Origin: a virus
Taxonomy: Duplodnaviria > Heunggongvirae > Uroviricota > Caudoviricetes
DNA length: 26,295 nt
IMG/VR virus record: IMGVR_UViG_2703718850_000007
Strand: one strand, 5' to 3'
Below are positions 4,441 to 22,092 of the stretch, piece after piece. A model generated the notes under the pieces. It saw only the letters and a program-made list of their open reading frames with translations, made no database searches and was not told the DNA's origin. Numbering within the stretch: position 1 is the first letter of the stretch; every line of letters starts with the position of its first letter. The translations under genes and the position numbers were made by a program.

Positions 4441-6665
<2,225 letters not shown>

Positions 6666-6685
<20 letters not shown>

Positions 6686-6996
6686 TCTCCCGCATATTGC
6701 CAGCATGGCTTTTAATGAGCCGCTGATGCTTGAACCCGCCTATGCGCGGGTTTTCTTTTGTGCGCTTGCAGGCCAGCTTGGGATCAGCCGCCTGACGGAT
6801 GCGGTGTCCGGCGACAGCCTGACTGCCCAGGAGGCACTCGCGACGCTGGCATTATCCGGTGATGATGACGGACCACGACAGGCCCGCAGTTATCAGGTCA
6901 TGAACGGCATCGCCGTGCTGCCGGTGTCCGGCACGCTGGTCAGCCGGACGCGGGCGCTGCAGCCGTACTCGGGGATGACCGGTTACAACGGCATTA
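6666..6996 (+). pseudogene. Head protease/scaffold (lambda gpC-like), N-terminal about 110 codons only
   Basis: GTG-initiated VTAELRNLPHIASMAFNEPLMLEPAYARVFF... matches the gpC N-terminus; identity ends at ...GYNGI, where the sequence becomes the reverse complement of the gpA N-terminal fragment. Confidence 0.85.
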
Positions 6997-8478
6997 GACG
7001 GATGCCCCTTTAATGGGGATCACCCGGAACAGCCCATGTTTTTTCGAGCGTTCATACACAATGGTCGGGTCAATCCCGCCAGTATCCCAGCAGATACGGG
7101 ATACCGACATTTCTGCACCATTCCGGCGGGTATAGGTTTTATTGATGGCCTCATCCACACGCAGCAGCGTCTGTTCATCGTCGTGGCGACCCATAATAAT
7201 CTGCCGGTCAATCAGCCAGCTTTCCTCACCCGGCCCCCATCCCCATACGCGCATTTCGTAGCGGTCCAGCTGGGAGTCGATACCGGCGGTCAGGTAAGCC
7301 ACACGGTCAGGAACGGGCGCTGAATAATGCTCTTTCCGCTCCGCCATCACCTCAGCATCCGGACGTTCGCCGATTTTCGCTTCCCATGTCTCACCGAGCG
7401 TGGTGTTCACGAAGGTTTTACGTTTTCCCGTATCCCCTTTCGTCTTCATCCAGTCTTTGACAATCTGCACCCAGGTGGTGAACGGGCTGTACGCCGTCCA
7501 GATGTGAAAGGTCACACTGTCCGGCGGCTCAATCTCTTCACCGGATGACGAAAACCAGAGAATGCCATCACGGGTCCAGATCCCGGTCTTTTCGCAGATA
7601 TAACGGGCATCAGTAAAGTCCAGCTCCTGCTGGCGGATGACGCAGGCATTATGCTCGCAGAGATAAAACACGCTGGAGGGGTCATCCGGCGTCCATTTGA
7701 GGCCAAACGGCGTCTCTTTGTCGCCAAATTTAAGATACTGCTCCTCCCCGCAGTGCGGGCAGGCAACATGAAAACGCATAAAATGCAGGGATTCACTGGC
7801 TGCACGCTCAATCTGGCAGGTGCCTCTCACTTTGGGCGTGGAGCCACGGATGGACTTTGGCCAGACCGAGCCTTCAATACGTTTGTCGCCAAGGAACGTC
7901 GGAGAGCCTTCCTGTTCAATATCCTCATCAAAGGCAGCAAGTTCATCATAACCCGCCACATCCACCGACTTTTCACGGTAGTTTTTTGCCGCTTTACCGC
8001 CCAGGCACCAGAAGCCACGACCATTGGAAAAACGCTTCATAGTGAGCGTGTTATCCCGGTGCTTTTTGCCATACCACGGAGCCAGCGCCAGCAGCGACGG
8101 AATATCGCGGATGGTCGGCTCAACGTGGGTTTTCATAAAGTTCTCGGCATCACCATCCGTCGGCAACCAGATAAGGGTGTTGCGCTGCTTATGCTCTATA
8201 AAGTAGGCATAAACACCCAGCAGCATTTTGGAATAACCGACACGGGCAGACTTCACCACATTCACCTCACGGATGTAGTCGCTGCCCATCGCATTCATGA
8301 TGGCCCGCTGAAAGGGCAGTGTTTCCCAGCGCCCTTCCTGGTATGCGGATTCTTTCGGGAGATAGTAATTAGCATCCGCCCATTCAACGGCGGTCTGTGG
8401 CTCCGGCCTGAACAGTGAGCGAAGCCCGGCGCGGACAAAATGCCGCAGCCTGTTAACCTGACTGTTCGATATATTCAC
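6994..8478 (-). pseudogene. Terminase large subunit (lambda gpA), N-terminal 494 codons, truncated
   Basis: MNISNSQVNRLRHFVRAGLRSLFRPEPQTAVEWADANYYLPKESAYQEGRW... ends at ...IPIKGASV followed by a stop created at the rearrangement junction; it overlaps the Nu1 3' end as in lambda. Confidence 0.9.
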
Positions 8479-15120: not shown

Positions 15121-15837
15121 TTATCTCGTCACCTTCCTCAATTGCGCTTCCGCGTATGCTTCTTCCTGCCAGCACTTTGTTACCAGTTTACCAATGACGT
15201 CCGCATACCCCTTATACCACTGATAATCGGTCAGGTCTGGTACCAGCTTCTGGACATGACGTCGTGCCAGCGTGGTCGGTAAACGACTAAACCGGTTTCC
15301 ATTACAACGCCCACAAATCTTATATACCGGTACGCCATGAAACCGGGTTCTTTTTTCATCCAGAACAATCCCTTTACCCTTACACCCTCTGCACGCTGTG
15401 CTGGCTTCGCCCTTACCATGGCAATGCTGACATAGTTCCTTCACCCATTCTTCCTTGATTACAGATTCCCCGCGTCTGTAGTGTTTCACCACTTCGCGCA
15501 ATACATTATAAAATCCCGTACCTGAACAATGCTCACAGCGAGCCTTACTTGCCGCAGACCTGGAGTAATCAGCAAAGGCAAAACTCACGAGGTAAGGAAT
15601 AATCTGTAACCGGATTTCTTCACTCAATTTGTTCAATGTCGGGTTATCCAGTGCCATCGCGTAATTTAGCAGGCCTTCAATCGCAAACTGAGGGTCCTGA
15701 ACACCAACTTTTGCCAGAAATAAGGCCAACCCAAGTGGTGCTTTCGACTTCACCATCCCCTGCGCTGCCATTTCAACGCACACAGCATAGAGGCCATCTT
15801 CACAAAAAATTTTACGCAGTTCTTCGATGTTCATCAT
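15121..15837 (-). CDS. quuQ: Late-gene antiterminator Q (Q82-like, zinc-binding)
   Basis: 238 aa with a Cys-rich zinc-finger region (CEHCSGTGFY...CQHCHGKGEASTACRGCKGKG...CGRCNGN) typical of Q-family antiterminators, directly upstream of the PR'-like promoter. Confidence 0.8.
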   Translation of the reverse strand: MMNIEELRKIFCEDGLYAVCVEMAAQGMVKSKAPLGLALFLAKVGVQDPQFAIEGLLNYAMALDNPTLNKLSEEIRLQIIPYLVSFAFADYSRSAASKARCEHCSGTGFYNVLREVVKHYRRGESVIKEEWVKELCQHCHGKGEASTACRGCKGKGIVLDEKRTRFHGVPVYKICGRCNGNRFSRLPTTLARRHVQKLVPDLTDYQWYKGYADVIGKLVTKCWQEEAYAEAQLRKVTR

Positions 15838-16053: not shown

Positions 16054-16209
16054 TTACTCCTCAGGTTCGTAAGCTGTGAAGACAGCGACCTCCGTCTGGC
16101 CGGTTCGGATTCGTACCTCGCAGAGGTCTTTCCTCGTTACCAGTGCCGTCACTATGACGGTTAAACAGATGACGATCAGGGCGATTAACATCGCCTTTTG
16201 CTGCTTCAT
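16054..16209 (-). CDS. hokD: Hok-family type I toxin (RelF)
   Basis: Hand-translated 51 aa, MKQQKAMLIALIVICLTVIVTALVTRKDLCEVRIRTGQTEVAVFTAYEPEE; below the ORF-track length cut-off. Confidence 0.9.
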   Translation of the reverse strand: MKQQKAMLIALIVICLTVIVTALVTRKDLCEVRIRTGQTEVAVFTAYEPEE

Positions 16210-17289: not shown

Positions 17290-17316
17290 TAAAGATTTTT
17301 TTGTGCATGCCGATAG
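17290..17316 (+). promoter_or_regulatory. Sigma-28 (FliA) class 3 flagellar promoter of flxA
   Basis: TAAAGATT, 11 bp, GCCGATAG, against consensus TAAAGTTT-N11-GCCGATAA; 24 bp upstream of the flxA ATG, which has AGGAG as RBS. Confidence 0.8.
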
Positions 17317-17339
17317 TGCTTTTTTAAAAGGAGAAATCT

Positions 17340-17672
17340 ATGTCTGTCACAATTCAGGGAAATACCTCAACCGTTATTTCAAACAACTCCGCCCCGGAAG
17401 GAACATCAGAAATAGCCAAAATCACAAGACAAATTCAGGTGCTGACTGAAAAGCTTGGGAAAATCTCATCGGAAGAGGGGATGACGACACAGCAGAAAAA
17501 AGAAATGGCTGCATTGGTACAGAAGCAAATTGAAAGCCTCTGGGCTCAACTGGAGCAGTTGTTAAGGCAGCAGGCAGAGAAAAAGAATGAAGACGCGACA
17601 GTTCAGCCTGATAAAAAAGAAGAGAAAAAAGACGATACAAATACCGCTGGCACCATTGATATTTACGTCTAA
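17340..17672 (+). CDS. flxA: FlxA, FliA-regulated protein
   Basis: 110 aa, MSVTIQGNTSTVISNNSAPEGTSEIAKITRQIQVLTEKLGKISSEEGMTTQQKKEMAALVQKQIESLWAQLEQLL... Confidence 0.9.
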   Translation: MSVTIQGNTSTVISNNSAPEGTSEIAKITRQIQVLTEKLGKISSEEGMTTQQKKEMAALVQKQIESLWAQLEQLLRQQAEKKNEDATVQPDKKEEKKDDTNTAGTIDIYV

Positions 17673-17686
17673 GTGACAGCCGTATT

Positions 17687-17718
17687 GTGGCCCTCATCGG
17701 GCCACTTTTCGCCATCAG
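17687..17718 (+). terminator. Probable flxA terminator (hairpin GTGGCCC/GGGCCAT with downstream T-run)
   Basis: GC-rich stem 17687-17705 followed after a short gap by CTTTTCTTT; the gap makes it weaker than a canonical terminator. Confidence 0.4.
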
Positions 17719-17749
17719 CCTTTTCTTTAAAGACATATTATCTTTGTAT

Positions 17750-19608
17750 CATTTCTGATAGTTAACATTACAAGATATAAGTAATGGACGCACTCCCAAT
17801 TAGTCTATTTAAATCGCCACGAGTTTAACTGACAACCCATGATCAATTATGAATTGCAACTATTTCTGTAGTCACTTTTGTGGGGACAGTCCACAAAACT
17901 GCCAACTTCCGCTTCTTGCTCTTAGCGGACATTAGCATAGGCTATTTACCATAACGCCTCATTACGCGCACCGCCCAGACTGACTCAGCGCGTTTCTGGC
18001 ATATCCCCGGTAAAACAAGTAACAAACCACCCGAAAATGAACACCAGAAACGCGACTTAAGAATCTACCCTATGAATGGATATGCACTCAACCGAATCGA
18101 TCTTGGTTTCAATCTTTTTTATCGGGATCAGGCTTCTTTTTAGGTAACTTCGGGGGCTTAACTTGCTGATGACTTTGCGTTCGGCGCGTAAGCCAGGGAT
18201 GGTCAGCTTTAGGTTTAACATAGTATTTTGAGCGTAAATCAATACGGGCATTATCCACTCGTTCATGGACACTCTTTTCATCATCCAGTGGTATAGGCTC
18301 CGGGCCATCAACATACTTTTCCCAGCCCAGCGCTTTCCCGTCATACAGAACGTTAATTTCACCGTCAAAGTTCTCGCATACAGTAACAACAGAATGCCTA
18401 AGTCGATATCCCCGGCCCTCACTGCGTACCTGAAACGCACTGCTTTTGTACTGGAAAGTGAGATTTTTAGACAGAACGCGCTTCGCCTGTAGGCTGAAGA
18501 TATAACCCAGTTCCTCTTCAGAATGGTGCACATCAAGATGAGCATTATCAGTAGTACGAGGCGACGTAGCGAACCGGTTGTTATAGGCTTCAATAAAGGT
18601 CGGCAACCATGCATTTGCTGTTTCAATATCACTGATATTCTGAAGCCGCATTTCTTTGACCAGCCTGTCCTGTAGTGTCTGATTGGCGCGCTCTACCCGC
18701 CCTTTTGCCTGCGGGCTGTTGGCATGGATTGGCTCGATGCCCAGTGTCTTTATCGCACGAGTGAACTGGGTCAGCTCACCTTCCCGCTCTGGGTTATTTA
18801 CCCTGAATATACTGTGTCTATCAGAGTAGAGAGCGAGCGGTACGCCATGATCATTAAGGTAACCCCGGAGGGTTTCCATGTAAGCCCGGGTTGTTTCAGC
18901 AGGCACAAAACGCAACGCCATCAACGCACTGGTGGCATCATCAATGAAAACGATCAGTGTACATCTGGGGCCTCGATTTTCAAACCAGTCATGAGGTGAG
19001 CCATCAATCTGGATCAGTTCACCGTAAGATGGTCGTCGCATGCGGCGTTGATATATACGGGCAATTTTACGACGGCGTTCACGCCATAACCCCTCTTCTA
19101 TCATCCACTTTCTGAGAGTTTCAACGGATAAAGATAAACCGTGTATCTCGCGCAATTTTTCGCACGCAAACGTAGGTCCAAAATCAGCGTAACGGCCTTT
19201 GAGGAGTGAAATTACTGTTGCTCTGAATTCAGTAGAAAAGGAATTATTAGGACGCTTTCCACGTCGGTGGGAAACCAGACCAGAAGGCCCTTCATTTCTA
19301 TACCGTTGCACCAGACGTTTAACCTGCCGAATAGAAATGCCAATGCGTGCCGCAGCTTGTTCCTGAATAATCTGAAGTCGGTGGAGTTCCTTATGACTCA
19401 TCGTAACAGTCTCTTTGATCATGAAAAATCCCCCAGAGAATTGTCTGGGGACATTTTAGAATGGTTCAAAGGGGACATTACAGCTTGGTGTTAACAATAG
19501 CCTGCTTCTCCGTGCCTTTCGGCACGTAAGAGGCTAACCTACATGTGTCTAGCATGAAATTGGCCTCAGATTAATGTTAAGCGTCTTGCAGGACGCGTAA
19601 TGTTAACT
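17750..19608. mobile_element. Insertion sequence carrying the single transposase gene; ends approximate
   Basis: A 12-bp perfect inverted repeat, AGTTAACATTAC (17750-17761) against GTAATGTTAACT (19597-19608), brackets the transposase gene. No target-site duplication was recognised, so the true termini are uncertain. Confidence 0.3.
18109..19422 (-). CDS. DDE transposase (rve integrase-core type, single-ORF IS; IS481/ISNCY-like, family not resolved)
   Basis: 437 aa; N-terminal HTH; DDE triad context IQIDGSPHDWF / LIVFIDDATS / PQAKGRVERANQTLQDRL; Lys/Pro-rich C-terminal tail. A 7-bp stem-loop (19431-19450) sits immediately upstream of the start codon. Confidence 0.85.
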   Translation of the reverse strand: MIKETVTMSHKELHRLQIIQEQAAARIGISIRQVKRLVQRYRNEGPSGLVSHRRGKRPNNSFSTEFRATVISLLKGRYADFGPTFACEKLREIHGLSLSVETLRKWMIEEGLWRERRRKIARIYQRRMRRPSYGELIQIDGSPHDWFENRGPRCTLIVFIDDATSALMALRFVPAETTRAYMETLRGYLNDHGVPLALYSDRHSIFRVNNPEREGELTQFTRAIKTLGIEPIHANSPQAKGRVERANQTLQDRLVKEMRLQNISDIETANAWLPTFIEAYNNRFATSPRTTDNAHLDVHHSEEELGYIFSLQAKRVLSKNLTFQYKSSAFQVRSEGRGYRLRHSVVTVCENFDGEINVLYDGKALGWEKYVDGPEPIPLDDEKSVHERVDNARIDLRSKYYVKPKADHPWLTRRTQSHQQVKPPKLPKKKPDPDKKD

Positions 19609-19756
19609 GGGGCTTTTCTCTATCTGCCGTTGGTGTCCATGCCCGAGGCAGATAGCCTCAAGCACCCGCAGTCATTCTACTTAACTAAGATTTCCCCGCA
19701 AACCGTTTTTGTCCAGCACAGTAAATATCCAACTAAACCAATGGAGTTCGCTGTAT

Positions 19757-19936
19757 TTACCGCCAGTATTCAATGCACATGACCGCCATGAACACCCCTA
19801 AAAAAAGGGCATTTATATATCCAAATATTAATATCAAAACATCAACTTTTTCCATATACCTTGCTGTGAAGATGATGGGCATACATGATGCGAACAACCA
19901 GAACGCAACAAACAAAAACTGCAATGCGTTTTTCAT
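19757..19936 (-). CDS. Hypothetical small two-TM membrane protein (59 aa)
   Basis: MKNALQFLFVAFWLFASCMPIIFTARYMEKVDVLILIFGYINALFLGVFMAVMCIEYWR; near-consensus RBS AGGAGG 5 nt upstream of the ATG; no family recognised. Confidence 0.5.
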   Translation of the reverse strand: MKNALQFLFVAFWLFASCMPIIFTARYMEKVDVLILIFGYINALFLGVFMAVMCIEYWR

Positions 19937-20190
19937 TATTCCTCCTACAATCAATGTGCAATTACATTTAAACACACCTCAATTTGGCCGGACATATAAA
20001 TATCTAAACCAGAAAAAATCACTTACATAGCGTTACAAACTCTTTAGTCTAAAGGTTCATCGTAAAACATTCCCCATACTTATCAGTCCGTTCCGCGCCA
20101 GGTAGCTCATTGCCTTATCTGGCAACCTGTAATCAGGTTTCCGCTTTTTCAGTTGGCTGGTCGTTTAACCGACATAGTTAATCCATTAAT

Positions 20191-20478
20191 CTAGTTGCCG
20201 GATGTTGGTGGATTTTCGCGTTTTAGTTGTTCATAAAAGTGCACAGCTTTAACCAGTTCTTCTGATGTAACTGGGACTGGTGAGGCAGTGAATAAGGCCT
20301 GAATTTGATAGTTCGGCCTGTCGTTACAATCCTCTTTTTTCGGTACATATTTCCAGTCACCAGACCACTACTTCCCCTGAAAGTCCGTAACGCCTTTTTT
20401 CACGTAGCGATATCGCCATGCCACTGGTTTTGCTTGCCCCGCCGTTTCATGCCCTTCCTGATAATTAATCTCGCTCAT
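20191..20478 (-). pseudogene. Hypothetical protein gene interrupted by an in-frame amber (TAG) codon at 20368-20370
   Basis: Hand-translation of the minus strand gives MSEINYQEGHETAGQAKPVAWRYRYVKKGVTDFQGK-TAG-WSGDWKYVPKKEDCNDRPNYQIQALFTASPVPVTSEELVKAVHFYEQLKRENPPTSGN, protein-like on both sides of the stop; it is transcribed divergently from ydfA. Confidence 0.45.
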
Positions 20479-20614
20479 TCATCGCCCCACTCATCACAAT
20501 ATGCTTCGACCGGAGTTTTTCCCGCTTCATAGTCATCACGCTAGGATTCGACATCAGCAGCACTTCCACCGCGTAACTCACCATACCCCAGCGTTAAGGG
20601 GAAATGAGGTCAGC

Positions 20615-20770
20615 ATGGATACTATCGATCTTGGCAACAACGAATCTCTGGTGTACGGCGTGTTTCCAAACCAGGACGGCACGTTCACCGCAATGACGTA
20701 TACCAAAAGCAAAACGTTTAAAACCGAAAATGGTGCCCGTCGCTGGCTGGAAAGAAACTCAGGTGAGTGA
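20615..20770 (+). CDS. ydfA: YdfA, first gene of the dicB operon
   Basis: 51 aa, MDTIDLGNNESLVYGVFPNQDGTFTAMTYTKSKTFKTENGARRWLERNSGE; GAGGT RBS. Confidence 0.8.
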   Translation: MDTIDLGNNESLVYGVFPNQDGTFTAMTYTKSKTFKTENGARRWLERNSGE

Positions 20771-20771
20771 T

Positions 20772-20900
20772 ATGGATTTCGACACAATCATGGAAAAGGC
20801 TTACGAAGAATACTTCGAAGGCCTTGCCGAAGGCGAAGAAGCTCTCAGCTTCAGTGAGTTTAAACAGGCGCTTTCCAGTTCGGCAAAATCTAACGGCTGA
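20772..20900 (+). CDS. ydfB: YdfB small acidic protein
   Basis: Hand-translated 42 aa, MDFDTIMEKAYEEYFEGLAEGEEALSFSEFKQALSSSAKSNG, starting 1 nt after the ydfA stop. Confidence 0.75.
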   Translation: MDFDTIMEKAYEEYFEGLAEGEEALSFSEFKQALSSSAKSNG

Positions 20901-20929
20901 TAAGCGAAACAGCACCGCGAGGAATCAGT

Positions 20930-21148
20930 ATGCAGAAACGAGAACCCGTCATCATCGCGCCAGACTATACCGATGATGAACTTTATGAGTGGATGCGCCA
21001 GAAAATTAATGCAGCGCAGGATCTGAAATGGGCTAATGAAGCCAGGGCTAAGCAGGCTGAAAATCTGTCCGCTCTGGAGCAGGATATCACCAATCTGGAA
21101 AAAGCAGCGGCATTAAGCATTGCCAGAATGATTACATACCCGCGTTAG
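20930..21148 (+). CDS. ydfC: YdfC
   Basis: 72 aa, MQKREPVIIAPDYTDDELYEWMRQKINAAQDLKWANEARAKQAENLSALEQDITNLEKAAA...; GAGG RBS. Confidence 0.75.
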   Translation: MQKREPVIIAPDYTDDELYEWMRQKINAAQDLKWANEARAKQAENLSALEQDITNLEKAAALSIARMITYPR

Positions 21149-21488
21149 TAGCTAATCAACAAAGCTAAGGTTAGTAATTAAGGAGTTCTCCACGGGTGAG
21201 GTGGAGTGCGTGCGCCGGACACGGGTGCGCATCCGGAACTGACAGTTTACTGAAAGGATATTTCCCTGAAAAGTCAGACCATAACGCGAAAGCGCACGGC
21301 GAGGTAGCTGGTTCATAGATAGCCTGTCGTTAAATTTTCGTCGACCGTGCGCTTCCGGTTGTGGCAACCCGCGAAATGGCGCGGCGGTAAGTATGGCGGG
21401 GTTATTCCTTCCCCGTTGAGGACACCGGGTTGTCAGGTTGACCATACGCTTAAGTGACAACCCCGCTGCAACGCCCTCTGTTATCAAT

Positions 21489-21541
21489 TTTCTGGTGACG
21501 TTTGGCGGTATCAGTTTTACTCCGTGACTGCTCTGCCGCCC
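21489..21541 (+). ncRNA. dicF: DicF small RNA (Hfq-dependent; targets ftsZ, xylR, pykA and manX mRNAs)
   Basis: TTTCTGGTGACGTTTGGCGGTATCAGTTTTACTCCGTGACTGCTCTGCCGCCC followed by TTTTT matches the 53-nt DicF sequence as I remember it; a long structured precursor region (21150-21488) precedes it. Confidence 0.9.
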
Positions 21542-21715
21542 TTTTTAAAGTGAATTTTGTGATGTGGTGAATGCGGCTGAGCGCACGCGGAACAGTTAAA
21601 ACCAAAAACAGTGTTATGGGTGGATTCTCTGTATCCGGCGTTAATTGTTAACTGGTTAACGTCACCTGGAGGCACCAGGCACTGCATCACAAAATTCATT
21701 GTTGAGGACGCGATA

Positions 21716-21904
21716 ATGAAAACGTTATTACCAAACGTTAATACGTCTGAAGGTTGTTTTGAAATTGGTGTCACTATCAGTAACCCAGTATTTACTGAAG
21801 ATGCCATTAACAAGAGAAAACAAGAACGGGAGCTATTAAATAAAATATGCATTGTTTCAATGCTGGCTCGTTTACGTCTGATGCCAAAAGGATGTGCACA
21901 ATGA
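21716..21904 (+). CDS. dicB: DicB cell-division inhibitor (MinC-dependent FtsZ-ring inhibitor)
   Basis: 62 aa, MKTLLPNVNTSEGCFEIGVTISNPVFTEDAINKRKQERELLNKICIVSMLARLRLMPKGCAQ; GAGGA RBS. Confidence 0.85.
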   Translation: MKTLLPNVNTSEGCFEIGVTISNPVFTEDAINKRKQERELLNKICIVSMLARLRLMPKGCAQ

Positions 21905-22092
21905 ATTCAGCATTTGTGCTTGTTCTGACAGTTTTTCTTGTTTCCGGAGAGCCAGTTGATATTGCAGTCAGTGTTCACAGGACAATGCAGGAGTGTATGA
22001 CTGCAGCAACCGAACAGAAAATTCCCGGTAACTGTTACCCGGTCGATAAAGTTATTCACCAGGATAATATCGAAATCCCGGCAGGTCTTTAA
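21901..22092 (+). CDS. ydfD: YdfD small membrane/lysis protein
   Basis: 63 aa, MNSAFVLVLTVFLVSGEPVDIAVSVHRTMQECMTAATEQKIPGNCYPVDKV...; start overlaps the dicB stop (ATGA); N-terminal hydrophobic segment. Confidence 0.7.
   Translation: MNSAFVLVLTVFLVSGEPVDIAVSVHRTMQECMTAATEQKIPGNCYPVDKVIHQDNIEIPAGL

What the first reader, a model, noticed from the sequence alone, without database searches (positions are those of the whole stretch)
17700..20614. The dicB operon has lost its dicA/dicC immunity region, which is replaced by an IS and two unrecognised ORFs
The ydfA-ydfB-ydfC-dicF-dicB-ydfD operon is intact (20615-22092), but the region directly upstream does not encode the DicA repressor or DicC. 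Between flxA and ydfA I instead find a DDE transposase, a 59-aa membrane protein with an AGGAGG RBS, and a divergent ORF with an in-frame amber codon. In K-12, dicA loss is lethal because DicB and DicF block division, so either the native promoter went with the repressor, a trans-acting repressor exists elsewhere, or expression is controlled differently here. This is the part of the window whose content is least explained by known Qin biology.
Basis: partly seen in the sequence, partly recalled or inferred. Interest (0 to 1): 0.65.

Follow-up and report, generated by a model that had tools for sequence, protein, structure and literature searches.

The report
Qin prophage deletion removed dicA, dicC, dicBp
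A single clean deletion in this E. coli Qin-type cryptic prophage removed the DicA/DicC repressor switch together with the promoter it controls, so the toxic dicF/dicB division-inhibitor genes are left intact but without their promoter; this is ordinary prophage decay, not a new control system.

Summary
The absence of dicA and dicC is real. tblastn finds neither in the window, and the same query sequences match strain N61 at 100% identity.

They were not replaced by the IS and the two ORFs. The ISNCY element, the 59-aa ORF and the amber-containing pseudogene are normal Qin-type backbone. They sit at the same place in relatives that keep dicA/dicC (E. coli C, N61, phage PhiR42_1). K-12 is the strain that lost them.

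The window carries one deletion with a 2-bp TA microhomology (junction 20585|20586). It is 1,375 bp relative to E. coli C, 3,264 bp relative to N61 and 3,629 bp relative to PhiR42_1. It removed ydaT', dicC, dicA, and dicBp with its operator-like sites. Only 29 nt remain upstream of ydfA.

The ydfA-to-ydfD stretch differs from K-12 by one SNP. No DicA operator survives in the window. No second dicA/dicC-like DNA exists on the chromosomes of the only two complete genomes (of 5,426) that share this junction.

Silence of the operon is inferred, not measured.

One side observation is only partly explained. At least three other independent dicA-less alleles share this right-hand breakpoint.

The parts
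17340..17672 (+). flxA, the left landmark, followed by a hairpin (GTGGCCC-TCAT-CGGGCCAC TTTT) at about 17681-17707
   Evidence: Pfam PF14282 E=2.3e-14. Annotated as flxA in all relatives. The hairpin was read from the sequence.
18109..19422 (-). ISNCY-family transposase ORF of 437 aa. Its last 49 codons (18109-18258) are what K-12 annotates as 'ydfW'. The element extends roughly 17761-19495; its ends are only inferred.
   Evidence: NCBIfam NF033594 gives 456 bits (cut-off 250) covering profile positions 7-365 of 368. phrog_8463 E=3e-137. PGAP lists ydfW at the same stop codon. K-12 homology ends at 18293, inside this ORF. No clean terminal inverted repeats were found.
19496..19667 (-). Orphan hok mRNA leader / sok region of a type I toxin-antitoxin locus, cut off exactly where the hok AUG should be, at the IS boundary
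   Evidence: Rfam RF01794 gives 104.1 bits (gathering score 59) over model positions 1-157 of 157. No Hok-like ORF follows in any frame.
19757..19936 (-). 59-aa hydrophobic ORF with an AGGAGG ribosome-binding site. It matches no family and is a resident of Qin-type prophages.
   Evidence: ORF list. No hit in Pfam, PHROGs or NCBIfam. It is 98-100% identical in three E. coli phage records. The exact protein is listed in about 25,000 blocks of the assembly collection; in the 8 contexts shown it lies upstream of the same transposase gene (7 of 8 reach flxA; in one another element is inserted between).
20057..20478 (-). Decayed phage gene (phrog_660 family, function unknown) with an amber codon at 20368-20370 and a frameshift
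   Evidence: phrog_660 E=8.8e-29. PGAP calls it 'hypothetical protein; frameshifted; internal stop' in every relative. Six-frame translation.
20584..20586 (.). Deletion junction ...CACCATA|CCCCAGCG..., with a TA microhomology at 20584-20585
   Evidence: BLAST piece coordinates against E. coli C, ABW_A32, K_EC180, N61 and PhiR42_1. Junction sequences.
20586..20614 (+). The 29 nt of the native dicBF 5' leader that survive, including the ydfA ribosome-binding site (AAATGAGG)
   Evidence: Identical to K-12 from 20584 onward.
20615..22092 (+). Intact ydfA-ydfB-ydfC-dicF-dicB-ydfD without its native promoter
   Evidence: One SNP against K-12 over 20586-22092. DicF RF00039. Pfam DUF1391 for YdfA.

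Best explanation
The window is a complete Qin-type cryptic prophage (ydfJ' to int). In it, one illegitimate-recombination deletion with a 2-bp TA microhomology joined the spacer upstream of the phrog_660 pseudogene to a point 29 nt upstream of ydfA.

The deleted block held the truncated ydaT (cII-position) gene, dicC (cro-like), dicA (cI-like), and the dicA-ydfA spacer with the PL-equivalent promoter dicBp and its DicA operator-like repeats. Measured against fuller relatives, it also held the O-like replication gene, DUF977, a methyltransferase and DUF7167'.

Because repressor and promoter were lost in the same event, the cell never passed through a dicA-minus, dicBp-plus state, which is the toxic one. 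The dicF/dicB cassette remains sequence-intact but has no native promoter, no operator, no repressor and, in this lineage, no Rem antirepressor (rem is truncated). It is most likely silent or expressed only at background level.

Shown: the anatomy, the extent of the deletion, the loss of promoter and operators, and the absence of a second dicA. Inferred: transcriptional silence.
For: Deletion mapping:
- Window 17300-20585 and 20584-21000 align to two places in each relative. The separation is 1,375 bp in E. coli C, 3,264 bp in N61 and 3,629 bp in phage PhiR42_1.
- Annotated genes in the missing block: YdaT', dicC, dicA; also MTase, DUF977 and an O-like gene.

Promoter and operators:
- The native spacer carries TTGACC-17-TAATCT at about -107/-84 from the ydfA ATG, overlapped by TGTTAGTCAT, which is the exact left half of the DicA operator Oc. 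All of this lies inside the deletion.
- The literature places dicBp between dicA and ydfA, found no other promoter in the operon, measured a 22-fold rise on dicA deletion, and could study dicA deletion only in a dicBF-deleted background (PMC10448788).
- Oc has no match with up to 3 mismatches in the window and a perfect match in N61.

What is left upstream:
- No sigma-70-like site scoring 9 of 12 or better on the + strand in 17600-20700. All ORFs between flxA and ydfA are on the - strand. A terminator-like hairpin lies at 20124-20139(+).

No second repressor:
- A chimeric query (junction plus reverse-complemented dicC-dicA, blastn word size 11) gives a single place in both chromosomes that carry the junction, so no second dicA/dicC-like DNA is there.
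- tblastn finds nothing in the first 50 kb of one plasmid record from each strain.

Consistency with other strains:
- Every other dicA-less allele seen (MB06232, GF31, CT02, Res13 strains, PCP06173) also lacks dicBp.
- rem is truncated in N61, and the window is collinear with N61 there.
Against: - There are no expression data.
- A permissive scan finds four weak + strand promoter-like sites scoring 8 of 12. One is TCGACC-16-CATAGT at 20506-20533, 80 bp upstream of ydfA. Its raw score equals that of native dicBp, so low-level transcription cannot be excluded.
- The window's own genome is not in the complete-genome set. Its closest relative, N61, has 7 SNPs and retains dicA. The search for a trans-acting repressor therefore used surrogates (SCU-118, CPE35), and only the first 50 kb of one plasmid record from each was read.
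- The same junction occurs in two Qin backgrounds: rem intact in SCU-118/CPE35, and rem'-Q' fused in the window. N61 has the fusion but keeps dicA. This requires either inter-strain recombination or recurrence of the deletion.
Confidence: 0.8

Rival explanations
1. The operon is still expressed, at a low and tolerated level, from a fortuitous promoter in the newly juxtaposed DNA or by read-through. In that case it is 'controlled differently' and may still give DicB/DicF phenotypes.
For: Weak promoter-like hexamers score 8 of 12 on the + strand at 20506-20533, 20305-20333 and 20323-20351. The ydfA ribosome-binding site and all coding and RNA sequences are intact.
Against: Nothing reaches 9 of 12, and such 8-of-12 matches are at chance density. 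The candidate sites also exist in dicA-plus relatives, with no known activity. A terminator-like hairpin lies at 20124-20139(+). The deletion looks recent (3 known carriers, flanks identical), so intactness of the cassette says nothing about selection.
Confidence: 0.15
2. A DicA-type repressor encoded elsewhere in the genome keeps the operon off in trans.
For: E. coli genomes often carry several lambdoid prophages. The ten contexts returned for the exact YdfA protein include several different HTH repressor types.
Against: The target is gone. No Oc-like operator remains in the window, and dicBp itself is deleted. The SCU-118 and CPE35 chromosomes show no second dicA/dicC-like DNA at blastn sensitivity.
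Confidence: 0.03
3. The junction is an assembly artefact, or the dicA-less arrangement is ancestral and dicA-dicC were inserted in the other strains.
For: None specific.
Against: The identical junction is present in two independently assembled complete genomes from different hosts and continents. The missing block is the canonical cI-cro-cII-O module of a 48.7-kb record deposited as the complete genome of phage PhiR42_1, and it is flanked by collinear sequence. All 10 contexts returned for the exact YdfA protein have a repressor gene upstream.
Confidence: 0.02

Closest known systems
Qin (Kim) cryptic prophage of E. coli K-12: dicC-dicA-dicBp-ydfABC-dicF-dicB-ydfD
   Same: The same prophage at the same chromosomal site (ydfJ...rspB side). 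relBE-hokD-ydfV-flxA and the whole ydfA-ydfD stretch are identical apart from one SNP.
   Different: The window lacks ydfX, dicC, dicA and dicBp. K-12 in turn lacks window 18294-20583: most of the ISNCY transposase gene, the hok leader, the 59-aa ORF and the phrog_660 pseudogene.
Qin-type prophage of E. coli N61 (NZ_AP028880), and Escherichia phage PhiR42_1 from ECOR13 (PV340562)
   Same: N61 is collinear over the whole 26.3-kb window with 7 SNPs. PhiR42_1 carries window 17300-20585 at 99.9% identity and the same ydfA side.
   Different: Both retain the immunity and replication block that is missing here (3,264 bp and 3,629 bp).
Other natural dicA-less Qin alleles: MB06232, GF31, CT02, the Res13 strains and PCP06173
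   Same: All lost dicA together with dicBp. MB06232, GF31 and CT02 share the window's right breakpoint TA|CCCCAGCG.
   Different: Their left breakpoints differ (inside the O-like gene, or inside ydfU). Some also lost ydfABC or dicF-dicB.
Lambda/P22 immunity region (cI/c2-cro with PL and OL)
   Same: The literature describes dicA/dicC/dicBp as the cI/cro/PL equivalents (PMC10448788). Here the imm region and PL were lost together.
   Different: This is an analogy of layout only. Nothing of the switch remains in the window to test.

Membership tests
Qin-type dicBF operon | ydfA-ydfB-ydfC-dicF-dicB-ydfD in order, with near-identity to K-12 | tested here: met
   One mismatch in 1,507 bp. DicF RF00039 scores 76.7 bits.
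Qin-type dicBF operon | dicA (cI-like) and dicC (cro-like) immediately upstream | tested here: not met
   tblastn is negative on the window and positive on N61 as a control. The deletion is mapped.
Qin-type dicBF operon | dicBp promoter with DicA operators in the dicA-ydfA spacer | tested here: not met
   Only 29 nt of the spacer remain. Oc has no match with up to 3 mismatches.
Qin-type dicBF operon | Transcription of the operon and processing to DicF | not testable with these tools
   This needs RNA data from a strain that carries the junction.
ISNCY-family insertion sequence | Full-length family transposase | tested here: met
   NF033594 scores 456 bits and covers profile positions 7-365 of 368. 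PGAP nevertheless labels it 'missing C-terminus'.
ISNCY-family insertion sequence | Terminal inverted repeats and a target-site duplication | tested here: inconclusive
   Only a degenerate GTTAACA...TAATG resemblance at about 17761 and 19495.
hok/sok type I toxin-antitoxin | hok mRNA leader / sok region | tested here: met
   RF01794 scores 104 bits with the full model matched.
hok/sok type I toxin-antitoxin | Hok toxin ORF downstream of the leader | tested here: not met
   The leader ends at the IS boundary, and no Hok-like ORF follows in any frame.
phrog_660 (phage protein, function unknown) | Profile match with an open reading frame | tested here: not met
   The profile matches (E=8.8e-29), but the frame carries a TAG and a frameshift. 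It is a pseudogene.

The most novel reading that the evidence does not exclude
The point 30 bp upstream of ydfA (TA|CCCCAGCGTTAAGGGG) is a genuine recombination hot spot. Through it, E. coli lineages repeatedly shed the DicA/DicC switch together with dicBp. The resulting promoterless but intact dicF-dicB cassette would then be kept because background expression is useful, for example through DicB-dependent phage exclusion.
Probability: 0.08. Interest if true: 0.45.

Novelty: already known. Interest (0 to 1): 0.18.

Why it matters
The value is mainly for annotation. A K-12-centred reading mistakes ancestral Qin backbone for an insertion, and a simple deletion for a regulatory puzzle.

It also gives a natural example of a known rule. 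A repressor that is needed only because it silences a toxic prophage operon can be lost safely only together with that operon's promoter. Every dicA-less allele seen here obeys the rule.

SCU-118 and CPE35 would be convenient natural dicA/dicC/dicBp-deleted, dicBF-plus strains for anyone studying DicB or DicF.

Tried and rejected
- Hairpin-driven breakpoint: folding the 74 nt around the junction as DNA gives z = -0.4 and +0.1 for the two strands. Rejected.
- Mosaic-module boundary: in 94 viral contigs the flank left of CCCCAGCG reads ...GTTCCGCTA in 93 and ...GTTCCGCCA in one, even where the sequence further left differs. Phage mosaic joints therefore lie further left than the deletion breakpoint. 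Rejected.
- IS66-mediated deletion: the IS66 remnant in ABW_A32 sits 34 bp beyond the window's left breakpoint. Not the cause.
- Pin/Gin-type site: a resemblance to gix half-sites noted by eye would put the crossover at a central AG, not at the observed TA. Dropped.
- Pattern scans for non-native flanks (DTACCCCAGCG...) found nothing in viral, metagenome or species-representative genome collections.
- A full census of dicA-less alleles in the 5,426 genomes was not possible, because the tool lists at most 60 rows.
- The heavy protein-database search for the 59-aa ORF was not run, because the main conclusion does not depend on it.
- Searches failed on input format and were repeated.
Full report
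**1. What is in the interval**

- A 437-aa transposase ORF lies at 18109-19422(-).
- A 59-aa hydrophobic ORF lies at 19757-19936(-), preceded by AGGAGGAATAATG.
- A divergent ORF at 20223-20478(-) is interrupted by TAG at 20368-20370.
- ydfA starts at 20615.
- The stretch 20586-22092 (ydfA, ydfB, ydfC, dicF, dicB, ydfD) differs from K-12 MG1655 at one base, 21297.
- DicF is recognised by Rfam at 21490-21541.

tblastn with DicA and DicC finds nothing in the whole window (best E=1.8). The queries are exact copies of the E. coli C proteins. They hit N61 at 100% identity as a positive control. The loss of dicA and dicC is therefore real.

**2. It is a deletion, not a replacement**

Megablast of 17300-21000 against 5,426 complete E. 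coli genomes gives single-piece matches (one SNP each) only in SCU-118 and CPE35. Other near-identical strains match in two or three pieces with extra DNA in between. Piece coordinates and annotation show the following.
- Window 17300-20585 is collinear with E. coli C, ABW_A32 and K_EC180. This stretch holds flxA, ydfW, the ISNCY transposase, the 59-aa ORF region and the pseudogene.
- In those strains the sequence then continues into YdaT', dicC, dicA and the dicA-ydfA spacer before reaching ydfA.
- The window jumps from ...CACCATA (20585) straight to CCCCAGCGTTAAGGGGAAATGAGGTCAGCATG (20586 onward). A TA is shared by both parental sequences.

The missing block is 1,375 bp relative to E. coli C.

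The whole window is a complete Qin-type prophage. Its closest complete genome is N61, with 7 SNPs in 26.3 kb, and the window lacks 3,264 bp relative to it. Relative to PhiR42_1 from ECOR13, a 48.7-kb record deposited as a complete phage genome, the window lacks 3,629 bp. That block holds cI (DicA), cro (DicC), cII (YdaT), O, DUF977/LygF, a methyltransferase and two small ORFs.

K-12 has a different deletion that removes window 18294-20583. That is why a K-12-based expectation made the resident DNA look foreign.

**3. What went with the repressor**

The native dicA-ydfA spacer contains TTGACC-17-TAATCT at about -107/-84 from the ydfA ATG. It is overlapped by TGTTAGTCAT. That 10-mer is the exact left half of the 20-bp DicA operator Oc, TTGTTAGTCATAACTAACAA, defined by Yun et al. 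(PMC3441716).

Ragunathan et al. (PMC10448788) report the following.
- dicBp lies in this spacer, with lambda-PL-like operators.
- No other promoter was found in the operon.
- Promoter activity rose 22-fold on dicA deletion.
- dicA deletion had to be studied in a dicBF-deleted background because derepression is toxic.

The deletion leaves only 29 nt upstream of ydfA, so the promoter and operators are gone. Oc has no match with up to 3 mismatches in the window and a perfect match in N61.

**4. What could still drive or control the operon**
- The consensus scan finds no + strand promoter scoring 9 of 12 or better between 17600 and 20700. It finds a terminator-like hairpin at 20124-20139(+).
- All ORFs between flxA and ydfA are on the opposite strand.
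- A permissive scan finds four sites scoring 8 of 12, including TCGACC-16-CATAGT at 20506-20533. This is the same raw score as native dicBp, so weak transcription cannot be excluded.

To test for a trans-acting repressor I built a chimeric query. It combined 800 bp across the junction with the reverse complement of dicC-dicA, searched with blastn at word size 11. This ranks junction carriers first and reports how many places each record matches. SCU-118 and CPE35 each have exactly one place. No second dicA/dicC-like DNA is therefore on those chromosomes. The first 50 kb of one plasmid record from each strain is also negative.

In N61 the antirepressor gene rem is truncated and fused to a Q' remnant. 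The window is collinear with N61 there. In this lineage DicA, DicC, dicBp, its operators and Rem are all gone, while the effectors are intact.

**5. Identity of the 'IS and two ORFs'**
- **Transposase.** It matches the NCBIfam ISNCY model essentially end to end (456 bits). The K-12 'gene' ydfW is simply its last 49 codons. The window's private SNP at 18391 is synonymous.
- **hok leader.** Immediately beside the IS, Rfam finds a full-length hok mRNA leader / sok region at 19496-19667(-) (104 bits). It stops exactly where the hok AUG should be, at the IS edge, and no Hok ORF follows. It is an orphaned type I toxin-antitoxin leader, separate from hokD at 16054-16209.
- **59-aa ORF.** It has no family in Pfam, PHROGs or NCBIfam. 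Its exact sequence is listed in about 25,000 blocks of the assembly collection. In all 8 contexts shown it lies upstream of the same transposase gene, and 7 of the 8 reach flxA. It also occurs in three phage records.
- **Amber-containing ORF.** It is a decayed member of phrog_660, function unknown.

All of these are standard Qin-type backbone.

**6. Frequency and a recurrent breakpoint**

The exact junction occurs in 2 of 5,426 complete genomes.

Other dicA-less alleles exist.
- MB06232.
- GF31.
- CT02.
- Six Res13 strains among the rows listed.
- PCP06173.

All of them also lack dicBp. That is expected if losing dicA alone is lethal.

MB06232, GF31 and CT02 have different left breakpoints but the same right breakpoint as the window, TA|CCCC(A/G)GCG. 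Part of this is explained. In N61, the 84 bp between the -10 element and the ydfA ATG share their two longest exact repeats with the 5.6 kb left of dicA. These are CCCCAGCGTT (10 bp) and GCTACCCCA (9 bp), and both lie at this spot. GF31 used the 9-mer. CT02 used an 8-of-9 match. The Res13 allele looks like a second deletion between this site and a near-repeat at the end of ydfC, TACCCGCGTTA.

The window's own junction has only TA in common. MB06232 has an 8-of-11 imperfect match. A hairpin explanation fails, and the site is not a phage mosaic boundary. My sampling was biased toward alleles that share this endpoint, so I record the observation as only partly explained.

The junction also occurs in two Qin backgrounds: rem intact in SCU-118/CPE35, and rem'-Q' fused in the window. 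N61 has the fusion but keeps dicA. This implies either recombination between strains or recurrence of the deletion.

**7. Verdict**

The anatomy is settled. One microhomology deletion removed the immunity switch and its target promoter together. This explains viability without invoking any new control. Silence of the dicF/dicB cassette is an inference, to which I give about 0.7-0.8, and it needs RNA data.

The finding is a correct observation with an ordinary explanation. All components belong to known families, and the allele already sits in public genomes. Interest is low. The only open thread is the shared breakpoint.

Noticed in passing
window 20584-20586; L006 6355, L116 3805, L007 4004, L114 3700, L115 3700: At least four independent dicA-less Qin alleles (the window type, MB06232, GF31, CT02) share the right breakpoint TA|CCCCAGCG, 30 bp upstream of ydfA. 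MB06232's left breakpoint is also joined to two other right partners (Res13 strains, PCP06173). Short homologies at this spot, plus the need to remove dicBp, explain part of this but not all.
   Followed up: partly
window 19496-19667 (-): A full-length hok mRNA leader / sok region (Rfam RF01794, 104 bits) ends exactly at the edge of the ISNCY element, with no hok ORF after it. It is an orphaned second hok/sok locus in Qin-type prophages. It carries a 16-nt insertion in one hairpin relative to the model.
   Followed up: partly
window 18109-18258 (-): The K-12 'gene' ydfW (49 aa) is the in-frame C-terminal end of the 437-aa ISNCY-family transposase ORF. K-12 keeps only the last 185 nt of that gene. 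PGAP annotates the two separately and calls the transposase C-terminally truncated, although it covers the NCBIfam model almost completely.
   Followed up: yes
window about 15121-15837 (-): rem (the DicA antirepressor) is cut to about 22 codons and fused to a truncated Q antiterminator gene, as in N61. ydfU and a small ORF are missing relative to SCU-118 and E. coli C. The antirepressor is therefore lost in this lineage as well.
   Followed up: partly
window 19757-19936 (-): A 59-aa two-helix hydrophobic ORF with a strong ribosome-binding site. PGAP does not annotate it and no family matches it. Yet the exact sequence is listed in about 25,000 blocks of the assembly collection, and it lies upstream of the same transposase gene in the 8 contexts shown. 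Whether it is expressed is unknown.
   Followed up: partly
window about 4441-8478: By collinearity with the N61 annotation, the prophage's morphogenesis region is a patchwork of truncated and inverted terminase, portal and protease fragments. This fits a long-dead prophage.
   Followed up: no
L113 (PV340562, phage PhiR42_1 from ECOR13): A 48.7-kb record deposited as a complete phage genome carries the Qin-type relBE-hokD-flxA-IS backbone together with intact cI/cro/cII/O. Some Qin-type elements may therefore still be complete phages.
   Followed up: no
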